Made by a program: the position numbers and the translations under genes
NCBI RefSeq assembly: GCF_042231735.1
Contig: NZ_CP102577.1
Span: forward strand, 2,911,281 to 2,975,280
DNA from: Corallococcus exercitus
GTDB lineage: Bacteria > Myxococcota > Myxococcia > Myxococcales > Myxococcaceae
DNA: 64,000 nucleotides
Direction of reading: 5' to 3'
In this document: piece after piece, positions 59,935-61,822 of the stretch
Numbering within the stretch: the stretch's first letter is position 1
Layout: each line of letters begins with the position of its first letter
Notes under the pieces: generated by a model
The model's input: only the letters and a program-made list of their open reading frames with translations
Databases searched by the model: none
What the model was told of the DNA's origin: nothing

Positions 59935-61464
59935 GTGCGGACCGGATTGAAGCGGTGGTGGGAGTTGGGCCGGGTGGCCCGCGCCTCCACGCGCCTGCGG
60001 CGGGTGTCCCGTCCCCAGGACGAGGAGCGCGCGCGGCGCGAGCTGACCCAGCGGCTGCTGGGCCTGCGGGGGTTGCCCCAGAAGGTAGGCCAGGTGCTCA
60101 CGCTCTCGGAGCTGGGCGCGGAAGCGCCGGGGTTCGGCTCGCTCGCGGAGGCGCCCTCCCCGCTCGCGCCGGAGGACGCGTTGGCGGAGATCTCCCGACG
60201 GCTGGGCCGGCCGTGGCAGGAGGTGTTCACGTCGCTGGAGGGCGAGGGCATCGCCGCGTCGCTGGGCCAGGTGCACCGGGGCTTGCTGCGCGACGGGCGC
60301 GCCGTGGCGGTGAAGCTGCGGCATCCGGGCATCGCGGAGGCCGTGCGGGATGATCTGCGCGCGCTGGGATGGCTGGCCGCGCCGCTGGGCGGCTGGCGCG
60401 GGAAGCTGGACATGTCCGCCTACCGCCACGAGCTGGCCCGGATGCTCCAGGGCGAGCTGGACTACCACCACGAGGCCCAGGCCCTGCGGGACGCGGGCGC
60501 GCGCATGGCGGACGTGCCGGGCGTCGTCGTCCCCGTGCCGGTGGACGCGCTCACCCGCGAAGACCTGCTGGTGATGAGCTGGGTGGAGGGCGCTTCGCTC
60601 GCGGATGGCTGGCGCTGGTGCGAAGCGGACCGCCGGGCGCTGTCCACCACGCTGGTCCGGCTGTTCCTCCACGGCTGCTTCTCTTGGGGCGCGCTCCACG
60701 CGGATCCGCACCCGGGCAACTACCGCGTGTCCCGGGAGCCGGACGGCAAGCTTGTGTTGGGAGTGCTCGACTTCGGCTGCGTGAAGCCGCTGCCGCCGGA
60801 GCTGGCGGTGGGGCTGGGGCGGTTGATCTCCCTCCTCCGGTGTCCGAACACCACGCCGCACCCGGAGCAGCTGCTGTCCGCGTGGGTGATGCTGGGCTTC
60901 ACGCCGGAGCTGCTGGAGCCCATGGCGGAAGCGCTGCCCGCCGTCAGCCGCGTGCTGCTGGAGCCCTTCCTCCTCGACGGTCCCTTCCACGCGAGGAGCT
61001 GGCGGCTGGGAGAGCGGCTCACCGAGGCGCTGGGCCCACACCGCTGGAACTTCCGCGCGGCCGGGCCCGCGTCGCTGCTGTTCGTCCTGCGCGCGTTCCA
61101 CGGGCTGGTGCGCCACCTGGACGTGCTGGATGCACCCATCGCGTGGGGCCCGCTGCTGGACGAGGCCCGCGCCCCGTCGCTCCCGCCTCCGCCGTCGCCG
61201 CCCGAGGCGCGGGTGGAGGGCACCGCGCGCTACCTGAAGGTCCGCGTGACAGAAGGGGGGAACACGCGTGTCGCGCTGACGTTCCGCGCGGACGTGACGG
61301 CGCACCTGGAGGACCTGTTGCCGGAGGACCTGCCGCGGAAGCTCGCGGCGCGGGGCCTGGATCCGGTCGCCATCGGCGCGGCGGCGGTCGCGGCGGGGCT
61401 GCGGCCGTCGGAGCTGTTCCACCTGGACGAGTGCGACCGCCACGTCCGGGTCTGGCTCGAGTGA
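59935..61464 (+). CDS. ABC1/UbiB/AarF-family atypical protein kinase
   Basis: ASLGQVHRGLLRDGRAVAVKLRHPGI, HADPHPGNY catalytic motif; probable GTG start. Confidence 0.7.
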   Translation: MRTGLKRWWELGRVARASTRLRRVSRPQDEERARRELTQRLLGLRGLPQKVGQVLTLSELGAEAPGFGSLAEAPSPLAPEDALAEISRRLGRPWQEVFTSLEGEGIAASLGQVHRGLLRDGRAVAVKLRHPGIAEAVRDDLRALGWLAAPLGGWRGKLDMSAYRHELARMLQGELDYHHEAQALRDAGARMADVPGVVVPVPVDALTREDLLVMSWVEGASLADGWRWCEADRRALSTTLVRLFLHGCFSWGALHADPHPGNYRVSREPDGKLVLGVLDFGCVKPLPPELAVGLGRLISLLRCPNTTPHPEQLLSAWVMLGFTPELLEPMAEALPAVSRVLLEPFLLDGPFHARSWRLGERLTEALGPHRWNFRAAGPASLLFVLRAFHGLVRHLDVLDAPIAWGPLLDEARAPSLPPPPSPPEARVEGTARYLKVRVTEGGNTRVALTFRADVTAHLEDLLPEDLPRKLAARGLDPVAIGAAAVAAGLRPSELFHLDECDRHVRVWLE

Positions 61465-61486
61465 AGGACAGACAAGGAGGTGACGC

Positions 61487-61822
61487 ATGGTCACCATCGG
61501 CATGAACTACGAAGTGCGGGAGGGCAAGGCGGAGGCCTTCGAGCGGAAGTTCGCGCTCGTCCTGGAGGCGATGCGGACGCTGCCGGCGCACGCGCACACG
61601 GAGCTGTTCAAGAGCGTGGGAGCACCAGGGCGCTACCTCATCGTCTCCGAGTGGCACAGCCGCGAGGGCTTCGACGCCTTCATCGCGTCCGAGGCCTTCC
61701 ACCGCGTGACGGACTGGGGCGCGAGCGCCATCCTCGCCAGCCGGCCGCGCCACGAGGTGTATGGCGATACGGCCAACAGCGCCCCCGCGGGCCGCTGCCC
61801 GGTCGCGCACGCGGTCCGGTGA
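61487..61822 (+). CDS. Antibiotic biosynthesis monooxygenase (ABM) domain protein
   Basis: MVTIGMNYEVREGKAEAFERKF...YLIVSEWHSREGFDAFIASEAFHRV ferredoxin-like ABM fold. Confidence 0.75.
   Translation: MVTIGMNYEVREGKAEAFERKFALVLEAMRTLPAHAHTELFKSVGAPGRYLIVSEWHSREGFDAFIASEAFHRVTDWGASAILASRPRHEVYGDTANSAPAGRCPVAHAVR

What the first reader, a model, noticed from the sequence alone, without database searches (positions are those of the whole stretch)
59935..61822. ABM monooxygenase and ABC1/UbiB kinase embedded between the MCP and cheB in a che operon
Two unusual genes sit between the trHb-MCP and cheB. One is an ABC1/UbiB atypical kinase. The other is a 111-aa ABM (antibiotic biosynthesis monooxygenase) domain protein. 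trHb-ABM fusions are known in actinomycetes. Here the two domains are instead encoded in the same operon as separate genes, which supports a conserved functional partnership, for example haem/ligand redox chemistry coupled to signalling.
Basis: inference. Interest (0 to 1): 0.6.

Follow-up and report, generated by a model that had tools for sequence, protein, structure and literature searches.

The report
Kinase-like and ABM genes in che operon
Two extra genes, a UbiB/ABC1-type kinase-like ATPase and a small ABM protein, really do sit inside a haem-sensing chemotaxis operon of Corallococcus; the arrangement was published in 2018, but here the kinase proves to be a conserved partner of this sensor type in several phyla rather than a one-off insertion.

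Summary
Window 59935-61464 encodes a 509-aa ABC1/UbiB-family protein (Pfam E=1e-46) and 61487-61822 a 111-aa ABM protein (E=3e-14). [quoted passage not shown]

The window is Corallococcus exercitus. The same architecture was published in silico as the 'Cc-5' cluster of C. coralloides (PMC6194562).

That paper said ABC1/ABM were absent from related clusters and were acquired later. The loci sampled here show otherwise.
- ABC1 belongs to a distinct subfamily with intact catalytic motifs and a C-terminal ~80-aa domain that matches no solved fold.
- It lies in or next to a che cluster in 11 of 14 subfamily loci, 10 of them with a globin, in Myxococcota, Nitrospirota, Acidobacteriota and Verrucomicrobiota. 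Generic ABC1 loci: 0 of 78.
- ABM is an optional add-on, always adjacent to ABC1, and is present in the clusters closest to Corallococcus.
- Outside these clusters the ABM subfamily shows no globin or che link (0 of 80 loci).
- ABM has a disordered tail with a conserved Cys-Pro-Val-x-His motif that looks like a haem-regulatory motif.

The mechanism remains inferred.

The parts
54042..54986 (+). PAS-LuxR (GerE) transcription regulator just upstream of the operon. It may be linked to the cluster but is not shown to belong to it.
   Evidence: Pfam GerE E=3e-15 and PAS_4 E=3e-10. The same gene sits at the same place in Corallococcus sp. M7 (L168).
55088..55115 (+). The only sigma-70-like promoter match in 54000-64000, lying 78 nt upstream of cheA. 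Weak evidence.
   Evidence: 9 of 12 hexamer matches; 0.1 expected in shuffles.
55193..57331 (+). cheA (712 aa)
   Evidence: Hpt, H-kinase_dim, HATPase_c and CheW domains.
57328..57816 (+). cheW (162 aa); overlaps cheA by 4 nt
   Evidence: PF01584 E=1e-29; spacing.
57816..59900 (+). Cytoplasmic MCP (694 aa). It has a group I truncated globin (residues 12-109; Tyr31 at B10, His79 at F8), one or two Aer2-type haem-PAS units (His348/Trp398; possibly His229/Trp278) and an MCP signalling domain (residues 491-652).
   Evidence: Pfam. The globin's best solved relatives are group I trHbs at E=6e-18. The PAS region matches Aer2 PAS structures 3vol, 4hi4 and 6ceq at E=4e-15 to 2e-13 with the His and Trp aligned. 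No hydrophobic segment typical of a membrane helix was seen.
59935..61464 (+). abc1: a UbiB/ABC1-family atypical kinase/ATPase (509 aa). Motifs: KxGQ at 50-53, Ala-rich loop at 107-114, Lys127, ELDY at 174-177, HADPHPGN at 255-262, DFG at 279-281.
   Evidence: PF03109 E=1e-46. Motif columns are invariant or nearly invariant in 34 subfamily sequences. Best solved relatives are the mycobacterial MABP-1/ABC1 proteins 7cy2 and 5yjz at E=3e-32, then COQ8B and COQ8A.
61207..61461 (+). C-terminal ~80-aa domain of ABC1 (residues 425-509; two-strand hairpin, three helices, two-strand hairpin). It marks the che-linked subfamily.
61474..61480 (+). Shine-Dalgarno sequence AAGGAGG for abm
   Evidence: Read directly from the sequence.
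61487..61822 (+). abm: a 111-aa ABM-fold protein, with core residues 1-96 and a disordered tail at 97-111
61796..61810 (+). Cys104-Pro105-Val-Ala-His108 motif in the ABM tail; candidate haem-regulatory or metal/redox motif
   Evidence: G-x-C-P-[VMA]-x-H is conserved in about 20 of 28 aligned homologues from several phyla, in 24 of 36 tailed members of the 80 family ORFs scanned, and in 5 of 6 ABMs that sit next to an ABC1 gene.
61834..62898 (+). cheB (354 aa)
   Evidence: Response_reg and CheB_methylest domains.
62901..63794 (+). cheR (297 aa)
   Evidence: CheR_N and CheR domains.

Best explanation
[quoted passage not shown] The operon is orthologous to the published Cc-5 cluster of C. coralloides. 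It is the Corallococcus copy of a widespread cluster type built around a soluble haem-based receptor: a group I truncated globin plus Aer2-type haem-PAS plus an MCP signalling domain.

Shown. ABC1 is the signature accessory protein of this cluster type. It is a soluble UbiB-family protein with every nucleotide-binding and catalytic motif intact. It is not the ubiquinone-pathway UbiB orthologue. It carries a subfamily-specific C-terminal domain of about 80 aa that matches no solved fold. ABM is an optional partner of ABC1. The whole unit, abc1 and abm included, most likely entered the genus by horizontal transfer as one piece.

Inferred mechanism. The multi-haem receptor reports O2, NO or redox state to CheA. 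ABC1 acts, like other UbiB-family members, as an ATPase gated by a small hydrophobic ligand (a quinone/quinol or a tetrapyrrole) rather than as a classical protein kinase. Through its C-terminal domain it tunes the receptor or the CheB/CheR adaptation branch, so the pathway integrates respiratory or cofactor status. ABM binds haem through its flexible Cys-Pro-Val-x-His tail and/or its barrel pocket. In that role it buffers or delivers haem to the sensor, or reports haem or redox state to ABC1.
For: Operon structure.

Identity with Cc-5:
- PMC6194562 describes the same gene order.
- WP_014397687.1 (Cc_4974 in the paper) clusters with P0006, which is 90% identical to the window's ABM.
- The window's MCP is 100% identical to a C. 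exercitus protein.
- L168 (Corallococcus sp. M7) has the identical gene order.

ABC1 next to a globin-PAS-MCP and che genes:
- Nitrospiria L001
- Acidobacteriia L002-L004
- Opitutaceae L005
- Vicinamibacterales L165
- L166, L169 and L170
- L104, with the order ABM-ABC1-CheA Hpt

Sampling from the receptor side, blind to ABC1, gave 2 of 3 clusters with ABC1 immediately after the MCP. Five more globin-MCP/ABC1 pairs share a contig length. As a control, 0 of 78 generic ABC1 loci have che or globin genes nearby.

Co-inheritance: ABC1 identity tracks che-gene identity across 9 loci (Spearman 0.75, p=0.02), and the ABM-bearing loci are the closest relatives in every gene.

ABC1 properties:
- Invariant Lys127, Asp257, Asn262 and DFG, with a nearly invariant KxGQ.
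- The UbiB equivalog scores 120 bits against a cut-off of 487.
- The nearest solved relative, MABP-1, is an ATPase that binds macrolides.
- The C-terminal domain is confidently folded but matches nothing.

Haem theme:
- The Cys-Pro tail is conserved and predicted disordered.
- ABM's only NCBIfam hit is NF007124 'heme-binding protein', E=5.5e-11.
- The ABM-like domain of haloarchaeal PitA binds protohaem without the haem-degrading residues (PMC5746218).
- Related clusters carry hemA, extra globins and a DUF420-like protein.
Against: - No experiment on any member of this cluster type exists. The only literature found (PMC6194562) is in silico.
- Three ABC1 subfamily loci are not shown in a che cluster: L006 has no che gene nearby, L167 has only REC and CheX genes, and L152 is a 2.6-kb contig too short to tell. 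One sampled receptor cluster lacks ABC1.
- Nothing shows what ligand ABC1 binds or what its C-terminal domain contacts.
- The Cys-Pro motif could equally be a metal or redox site. Several unlinked ABM homologues lie near Rrf2/Suf genes, and L170's ABM has a His-rich tail with no Cys.
- The ABM core resembles LsrG, SnoaB and YgiN more than the haem-degrading MhuD and IsdG.
- The Corallococcus cluster lacks the CheY found in its relatives, so its output is unknown.
Confidence: 0.6

Rival explanations
1. ABM and the truncated globin form a conserved two-protein unit, a split version of the actinomycete trHb-ABM chimera, in which ABM carries out haem or ligand redox chemistry on the MCP's globin signal. 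ABC1 is secondary.
For: - trHb-ABM chimeras exist (Bonamore 2007, cited).
- ABM recurs in four independent clusters with a globin-type MCP: the window, L001, L169 and L170.
- ABM has haem-suggestive features: the Cys-Pro tail and the NF007124 match.
Against: - 6 of the 10 clusters that combine ABC1 with a globin have no ABM.
- ABM is always next to ABC1, also in L104 and L152, where no globin was detected on short contigs.
- 0 of 80 other ABM-subfamily loci have a globin nearby, and no homologue is fused to a globin.
- The globin is group I.
- The IsdG/MhuD catalytic residues are absent.
Confidence: 0.15
2. The model of the 2018 paper. ABC1 and ABM are two 'monooxygenases' serving ubiquinone biosynthesis and aerobic respiration, picked up by C. 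coralloides from other bacteria after a che core of five genes had been acquired horizontally.
For: - PMC6194562.
- ABC1 is in the UbiB family.
Against: - Separate later acquisition is contradicted by L169, L170 and L001, which have the same MCP-ABC1-ABM-(CheY)-CheB order and are the closest relatives in every gene.
- ABC1 scores far below the UbiB equivalog cut-offs (120 against 487.55 bits, and 84 against 667).
- ABC1 has no hydrophobic segment typical of a membrane helix.
- From general knowledge, UbiB-family proteins are kinase-like ATPases, not monooxygenases.
- The cluster occurs in at least 15 Corallococcus species, not in one genome only.
Confidence: 0.08
3. ABC1 is a true protein kinase that phosphorylates the MCP, CheA or CheB on Ser/Thr/Tyr. 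This would add a second, ATP-dependent input or adaptation layer to the pathway. ABM would be a substrate or a regulator.
For: - All kinase catalytic residues are invariant.
- The one sampled receptor cluster without ABC1 carries a Hanks-type Pkinase+REC protein instead.
- One database protein (P0234) joins a CheA Hpt domain and the start of the dimerisation domain to the C-terminal two-thirds of an ABC1 protein.
Against: - The KxGQ motif is nearly invariant. From general knowledge of COQ8, this motif occludes the peptide-binding groove in UbiB-family proteins.
- The solved relatives are an ATPase that binds macrolides and proteins named atypical kinases.
- P0234 is a single sequence and may be an assembly chimera.
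Confidence: 0.15
4. The two genes are hitch-hikers: a neutral insertion with no functional link to chemosensing.
For: Their function is unknown. The ABM subfamily is mostly found in unrelated contexts.
Against: - The same adjacency recurs across phyla, against 0 of 78 generic ABC1 control loci.
- The intergenic gaps are tight and abm has its own ribosome-binding site.
- ABC1 identity co-varies with che-gene identity.
- The cluster is retained in at least 15 Corallococcus species at 83-96% identity.
Confidence: 0.02

Closest known systems
Cc-5 chemosensory cluster of Corallococcus coralloides DSM 2259 (Sharma, Parales & Singer 2018, PMC6194562)
   Same: Identical gene order, CheA-CheW-MCP(globin+PAS)-ABC1-ABM-CheB-CheR, with no CheY. 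The paper's ABM (WP_014397687.1) is in the same 90% cluster as a protein 90% identical to the window's ABM.
   Different: The window comes from another species, C. exercitus. The paper reported the cluster in one of 34 myxobacterial genomes and no ABC1/ABM in related clusters. The loci sampled here show it in at least 15 Corallococcus species and show ABC1, with or without ABM, in related clusters of other phyla.
UbiB/ABC1/COQ8 family of atypical kinase-like ATPases, including mycobacterial MABP-1 (Rv3197)
   Same: PF03109 domain; KxGQ, Ala-rich loop, catalytic Lys, Asp, Asn and DFG motifs; best solved relatives 7cy2 and 5yjz, then COQ8B and COQ8A.
   Different: It scores far below the UbiB and MABP-1 equivalog cut-offs and shows no hydrophobic segment typical of a membrane helix. 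It has an extra C-terminal domain of about 80 aa that matches no Pfam family or solved fold. Its genomic context is chemosensory, not quinone biosynthesis.
Aer2 / Che2-type pathways with a soluble haem-PAS receptor (Pseudomonas aeruginosa, Vibrio cholerae)
   Same: A soluble MCP with a haem-PAS whose ligand His and distal Trp are conserved, encoded inside its own che cluster with CheB and CheR.
   Different: This receptor adds an N-terminal group I truncated globin. As far as I know, ABC1 and ABM genes have not been reported in Aer2 clusters; this was not checked here.
trHb-ABM chimera of Streptomyces avermitilis (Bonamore et al. 2007)
   Same: It brings together the same two Pfam families, Bac_globin and ABM.
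   Different: Here they are separate genes with abc1 between them. No homologue of this ABM is fused to a globin. The globin here is group I; the group of the chimera's globin was not verified.
ABM-like haem-binding domain of haloarchaeal PitA, and NCBIfam NF007124 'heme-binding protein'
   Same: ABM's only NCBIfam hit is the C-terminal part of NF007124 at E=5.5e-11. PitA's ABM-like domain binds protohaem without the haem-degrading residues (PMC5746218).
   Different: The hit is below the family cut-off (43 against 446 bits). ABM here is a single-domain protein. That NF007124 is the PitA family is my assumption.
IsdG/MhuD/HmoB haem-degrading ABM enzymes
   Different: The Asn/Trp/His triad maps to Met6/Phe65/Val74 (the last position is extrapolated). 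Non-haem ABM proteins such as LsrG, SnoaB and YgiN are closer structurally.

Membership tests
ABC1/UbiB atypical kinase family (PF03109) | Pfam ABC1 domain above the gathering score | tested here: met
   159 bits against a cut-off of 22.9, E=1.2e-46.
ABC1/UbiB atypical kinase family (PF03109) | Family motifs: KxGQ, Ala-rich nucleotide loop, beta3 Lys, catalytic Asp/Asn, DFG | tested here: met
   K50-x-G52-Q53, AASLGQVH at 107-114, K127, D257, N262 and D279-F-G are invariant or nearly invariant in 34 sequences.
UbiB proper (ubiquinone-pathway orthologue; TIGR01982 / NF003404) | Score above the equivalog cut-off | tested here: not met
   120 bits against 487.55, and 84 against 667.
UbiB proper (ubiquinone-pathway orthologue; TIGR01982 / NF003404) | Membrane anchoring helices | tested here: not met
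   Maximum 19-residue Kyte-Doolittle hydropathy is 1.27. This is a crude test.
ABM family (PF03992) | Pfam domain above the gathering score and a ferredoxin-like alpha+beta barrel fold | tested here: met
IsdG/MhuD haem oxygenases | Catalytic Asn7 / Trp66-67 / His75-77 triad | tested here: not met
   The profile alignment to MhuD (offset of one residue) places Met6 and Phe65 at the Asn and Trp positions. The His position, extrapolated beyond the aligned block, is Val74.
Haem-regulatory motif (Cys-Pro) | A conserved Cys-Pro dipeptide in a flexible segment, often followed by a hydrophobic residue and a His | tested here: met
   Cys104-Pro105-Val-Ala-His108 lies in a tail with pLDDT below 50. It is conserved while the flanking tail residues vary. 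The consensus definition is from my own knowledge.
Haem-regulatory motif (Cys-Pro) | Actual haem binding through the Cys thiolate | not testable with these tools
   Needs spectroscopy of purified ABM with and without a C104A change.
trHb-ABM chimera (Streptomyces type) | Globin and ABM in one polypeptide, or ABM homologues that are so fused | tested here: not met
   The two are separate genes with abc1 between them. All 83 homologues are 94-126 aa and carry PF03992 only.
Group I truncated haemoglobin (trHbN) | Closest to group I structures, with TyrB10 and proximal HisF8 conserved | tested here: met
   Group I trHbs (3aq5, THB1, GlbN, HbN) score E=6e-18 to 4e-15, against 2e-5 for HbO. Tyr31 and His79 align with the B10 and F8 positions.
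Aer2-type haem-PAS | Haem-ligand His and O2-stabilising Trp | tested here: met
   His348 and Trp398 align with Aer2 His234 and Trp283 in 3vol and 4hi4. The residue roles are from my own knowledge.
Cc-5 type chemosensory cluster (PMC6194562) | Gene order CheA-CheW-MCP(globin, PAS)-ABC1-ABM-CheB-CheR and orthology to Cc_4970-4976 | tested here: met
   Gene order. Orthology for ABM comes from cluster membership of WP_014397687.1. ABC1 and MCP orthologues are present in many Corallococcus species.
Single operon | Same strand, short gaps, no internal terminator | tested here: met
Single operon | One transcript | not testable with these tools
   Needs RNA data.

The most novel reading that the evidence does not exclude
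A dedicated branch of the UbiB/ABC1 kinase-like ATPases, marked by a previously undescribed C-terminal domain, is a widespread and so far unrecognised accessory component of haem-based (trHb/PAS) chemosensory pathways. It would couple the state of a hydrophobic redox cofactor (quinone or haem) to receptor signalling or adaptation. In one sub-lineage its small ABM partner would act as a haem-sensing or haem-delivering adaptor through a bacterial Cys-Pro haem-regulatory motif. That would amount to a new class of Che accessory protein and a new, non-biosynthetic role for the UbiB family.
Probability: 0.35. Interest if true: 0.65.

Novelty: new member of a known kind. Interest (0 to 1): 0.4.

Why it matters
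Taken as an observation, this is the C. exercitus copy of a cluster already described in silico, so the finding is not new.

What the re-analysis adds is that the UbiB-family gene is not a local oddity. It travels with a truncated-globin/haem-PAS chemoreceptor and CheB in several phyla. UbiB/ABC1 proteins are among the least understood kinase-like families, and their only well-studied role is in quinone biosynthesis. A recurrent, genetically tractable link to a signalling pathway with a measurable output (receptor methylation, CheA activity, behaviour) would give a new handle on what these proteins sense and do. It could also reveal how energy or haem status feeds into chemosensory arrays.

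The conserved Cys-Pro tail on the ABM partner is a simple hypothesis to test for haem binding.

Tried and rejected
It returned only two subfamily loci (L005, L006). The other 78 loci were reused as a negative control.
- The metagenome scan with the ABM alignment showed that the ABM subfamily is mostly unlinked to che, globin or ABC1 genes. Only 2 of 80 loci have an ABC1 neighbour. Clustering the neighbours gave no dominant partner: MFS transporters, methyltransferases, Rrf2/SufB and glycosyltransferases each occur in 6 loci or fewer.
- ABM as an IsdG/MhuD-type haem oxygenase was rejected.
- ABC1 as the UbiB orthologue was rejected.
- The 81-aa 'stand-alone' hits to the C-terminal domain are fragments that start at a conserved internal Met. 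For example, P0214 equals the C-terminus of P0202. They are not a separate protein family.
- The exact-sequence look-up of the window's ABM found nothing. The species was identified through the MCP instead.
- I could not verify from the held papers which trHb group the Streptomyces chimera carries.
- The taxonomy of L169 and L170, the closest non-Corallococcus clusters, could not be determined.
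Full report
1. What is in the sequence

Between 54000 and 64000 the + strand carries a compact gene row.
- A PAS-LuxR regulator, 54042-54986.
- CheA, 55193-57331.
- CheW, 57328-57816.
- A 694-aa MCP, 57816-59900, with Bac_globin (E=3e-17), PAS and MCPsignal (E=6e-33) domains.
- A 509-aa ABC1/UbiB-family protein, 59935-61464 (GTG start; PF03109 E=1.2e-46).
- A 111-aa ABM protein, 61487-61822 (PF03992 E=3.2e-14), with an AAGGAGG ribosome-binding site at 61474-61480.
- CheB, 61834-62898.
- CheR, 62901-63794.

The gaps from cheA to cheR are -4, -1, 34, 22, 11 and 2 nt, and GC3 is 0.90-0.97 in every gene. The consensus scan finds no promoter-like or terminator-like site between genes. 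The single terminator-like hit lies inside abc1, and one hit is no more than the shuffles give (1.6 expected). The single promoter-like hit (55088-55115) lies upstream of cheA.

2. Source, and what is already published

The first 440 residues of the MCP are 100% identical to a Corallococcus exercitus protein on a 10.1-Mb contig. A full-text search found Sharma, Parales & Singer 2018 (PMC6194562). [quoted passage not shown]

The paper's ABM (WP_014397687.1) sits in the same 90%-identity cluster as P0006, which is 90% identical to the window's ABM. Corallococcus sp. M7 has the same gene order, including the upstream DUF72 and PAS-LuxR genes and the downstream DAGK gene (L168).

The paper made three statements that can be tested here:
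- the cluster occurs in one of 34 myxobacterial genomes;
- no related cluster elsewhere contains ABC1 or ABM;
- the two genes were added after a five-gene che core had been acquired horizontally.

The first is outdated. ABC1, ABM and MCP orthologues at 73-96% identity now exist in at least 15 named or unnamed Corallococcus species.

3. Are ABC1 and ABM conserved in related che clusters?

Full-length ABC1 homologues (about 510 aa, 40-50% identity, 100% coverage) occur in MAGs annotated as Nitrospiria, Acidobacteriia, Vicinamibacterales and Gemmatimonadetes and Opitutaceae. Their neighbourhoods are as follows.

| Locus | Source | Gene order |
|---|---|---|
| L001 | Nitrospiria | MCP-ABC1-ABM-CheY-CheB |
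| L169 | unknown | CheA-CheW-globin/PAS-MCP-ABC1-ABM-CheY-CheB-CheR |
| L170 | unknown | MCP-ABC1-ABM-CheY-CheB-CheR |
| L002-L004 | Acidobacteriia | CheY-CheA-CheW-CheY-CheB-CheR-DUF420-globin-globin/PAS-MCP-ABC1-CheB |
| L005 | Opitutaceae | CheA-MCP-CheW-trHb-248aa-HemA-ABC1-CheB-CheR |
| L165 | Vicinamibacterales | CheA-CheW-DUF420-like-globin/PAS-MCP-CheY-CheB-CheR-CheX-105aa-ABC1 |
| L166 | unknown | CheY-CheA-CheW-globin/PAS-MCP-247aa-ABC1 |
| L104 | unknown | ABM-ABC1-CheA (Hpt, E=8e-9) |

Three subfamily loci are not shown in a che cluster. L006 has no che gene nearby, L167 has only REC and CheX genes, and L152 is a 2.6-kb contig with an ABM-ABC1 pair and no che or globin hit, too short to tell.

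To avoid selecting on ABC1, I sampled three globin-PAS-MCP homologues on long contigs. Two have ABC1 immediately after the MCP (L171, L172). The third has no ABC1 but carries a Pkinase+REC protein after CheX.

As a control, none of 78 generic ABC1 loci (median 20 kb) has a che or globin gene nearby.

ABC1 identity to the window correlates with the mean identity of CheA, MCP, CheB and CheR over nine loci (Spearman 0.75, p=0.02). The three ABM-bearing loci (L001, L169, L170) are the closest relatives in every gene. The second and third statements of the 2018 paper therefore do not hold. The unit including abc1 and abm was most likely inherited or transferred as a whole, and Corallococcus lost the CheY.

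4. The ABC1 protein

All UbiB-family motifs are present and conserved across 34 subfamily sequences: KxGQ (50-53), the Ala-rich loop (107-114), Lys127, ELDY (174-177), HADPHPGN (255-262) and DFG (279-281).

It is not the ubiquinone-pathway UbiB. It scores 120 bits against the 487.55-bit cut-off of TIGR01982, and it shows no hydrophobic segment typical of a membrane helix.

Its nearest solved relatives are the mycobacterial ABC1-family ATPase MABP-1 (7cy2 and 5yjz, E=3e-32), followed by COQ8B and COQ8A. MABP-1 is reported to have ATPase activity and to bind macrolides (PMC8696161 and PMC6208485).

After a variable Pro-rich linker the protein ends in a conserved domain of about 80 aa (residues 425-509).
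- It folds confidently as a two-strand hairpin, three helices and a two-strand hairpin (pLDDT 90).
- A profile of it finds 702 representative proteins among 1.84 billion, always with the domain at the C-terminus. Almost all full-length hits are 490-540 aa.
- The many 81-aa hits are fragments that begin at a conserved internal Met.

This domain marks the che-linked subfamily and is the obvious candidate for contacting the signalling machinery.

5. The ABM protein

The model is a standard ABM alpha+beta barrel subunit (residues 1-96, pLDDT above 90) with a disordered tail at 97-111.

Three observations nevertheless point towards haem.
- The otherwise variable tail carries a conserved G-x-C-P-[V/M/A]-x-H motif. 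This holds in about 20 of 28 aligned homologues from several phyla, in 24 of 36 tailed members of the 80 family ORFs scanned and in 5 of 6 ABMs that lie next to an ABC1 gene. From my own knowledge, this matches the classical Cys-Pro haem-regulatory motif (Hap1-type K/R-C-P-V/I-D-H).
- The only NCBIfam hit is the C-terminal part of NF007124 'heme-binding protein' (E=5.5e-11, below the cut-off). I take this to be the haloarchaeal PitA type. PitA's ABM-like domain binds protohaem without haem-degrading residues (PMC5746218).
- Related clusters carry other haem-related genes: hemA, extra globins, a DUF420-like membrane protein and a haem-oxygenase-like gene.

Against a general globin link, 0 of 80 other loci of this ABM subfamily have a globin or che gene nearby (only 25 of them are 5 kb or longer). 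Their neighbours are heterogeneous. None of the 83 homologues is fused to a globin.

6. The receptor

The globin is a group I truncated haemoglobin. Its best solved relatives are Tetrahymena trHbN, Chlamydomonas THB1, cyanobacterial GlbN and M. tuberculosis HbN (E=6e-18 to 4e-15), against 2e-5 for HbO. Tyr31 (B10) and His79 (F8) are conserved.

The middle region is homologous to the haem-PAS of Aer2 (3vol, 4hi4 and 6ceq; E=4e-15 to 2e-13). His348 and Trp398 align with the Aer2 haem-ligand His and distal Trp. An upstream PAS-like repeat has a His229/Trp278 pair with the same spacing. The receptor may therefore bind two or three haems, which makes an accessory haem-handling protein plausible.

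7. Interpretation

Shown:
- the two genes are real;
- they are embedded in the operon;
- they are conserved within the genus;
- they belong to a cluster type that recurs across phyla, with ABC1 as the consistent accessory gene and ABM as an optional partner adjacent to ABC1.

Inferred:
- ABC1 works as a ligand-gated ATPase. This rests on UbiB-family behaviour and the conserved KxGQ motif, which argues against classical protein-kinase activity.
- It relays quinone or haem status to the receptor or to the adaptation branch through its C-terminal domain.
- ABM binds haem through its Cys-Pro tail.

I give about 0.85 to the 'conserved accessory module' part and about 0.3 to the specific mechanism; the overall confidence is 0.6.

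Rivals:
- a true protein-kinase role for ABC1 (0.15);
- the 2018 quinone-biosynthesis and late-acquisition model (0.08);
- neutral hitch-hiking (0.02).

8. Novelty and score

The arrangement itself is published, and the window is another species' copy, so I class it as a new member of a known kind. Beyond the literature I could find, the new points are:
- the cross-phylum conservation of the ABC1 subfamily with this receptor type;
- its unassigned C-terminal domain;
- co-inheritance of abc1 and abm with the che genes;
- the Cys-Pro tail of ABM.

None of this is experimentally grounded, and the neighbourhood sample is small. Interest is 0.4.

Noticed in passing
window 58221-59135 (MCP residues 136-440): The MCP's PAS region is homologous to the haem-binding PAS of Aer2. 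His348 and Trp398 align with the Aer2 haem-ligand His and distal Trp. An upstream PAS-like repeat has His229 and Trp278 at the same 49-residue spacing. Together with the N-terminal trHb, the receptor may hold two or three haems.
   Followed up: partly
L168 9730-10058 (Corallococcus sp. M7): A 109-bp unit spanning the mcp stop codon and the abc1 start is tandemly triplicated (89% matches). This gives a 252-nt mcp-abc1 spacer with two truncated abc1 5' ends. The window has a single copy and a 34-nt gap.
   Followed up: partly
window 61822-61834; L001, L169, L170, L172: Related clusters have a single-domain CheY between ABM or ABC1 and CheB. In the Corallococcus cluster abm is followed directly by cheB with no CheY, so the output of the pathway is unclear. 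PMC6194562 also notes the missing CheY.
   Followed up: no
L002 6934-7296; L165 4177-4635; L171 9598-9960; L172 9632-9988: A DUF420-like membrane protein of about 120 aa (50-70% identical among these loci) lies just upstream of the globin genes, directly before the globin-MCP in three loci and before a stand-alone globin in L002. It is absent from the Corallococcus cluster.
   Followed up: partly
L005 7946-8692 and L166 9089-9832; L002 14703-16349 and L169 9718-11361: Two more recurrent accessory genes have no Pfam family: a protein of about 248 aa upstream of ABC1 (65% identical between the two loci), and a Cys-rich protein of about 547 aa downstream of the che genes (53% identical between the two loci).
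   Followed up: partly
L005 8845-9993: A glutamyl-tRNA reductase gene (hemA, the first step of haem synthesis; GlutR_N E=5e-34) sits between a stand-alone trHb and ABC1 in the Opitutaceae che cluster.
   Followed up: partly
locus of P0412 (no DNA available): The one sampled globin-PAS-MCP cluster without ABC1 has a Hanks-type Pkinase fused to a receiver domain right after CheX. It may be a functional stand-in for ABC1.
   Followed up: no
protein P0234 (590 aa): One database protein joins a CheA Hpt domain and the start of the dimerisation domain directly to the C-terminal two-thirds of an ABC1-subfamily protein, which lacks the N-lobe with the catalytic Lys. It could be a real fusion or an assembly chimera.
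   Followed up: no
L085-L164 (ABM-subfamily loci): Outside che clusters the same ABM subfamily has no dominant neighbour. Small groups of loci place it next to an Rrf2-type regulator and SufB, an MFS transporter, a methyltransferase or a glycosyltransferase. About half of the members are 94-aa forms without the Cys-Pro tail.
   Followed up: partly
window 54042-54986: A PAS-LuxR regulator lies 206 nt upstream of cheA and is conserved at the same position in Corallococcus sp. M7. L172 has a GerE-type regulator upstream on the opposite strand. It may be a dedicated transcriptional regulator of the cluster.
   Followed up: no
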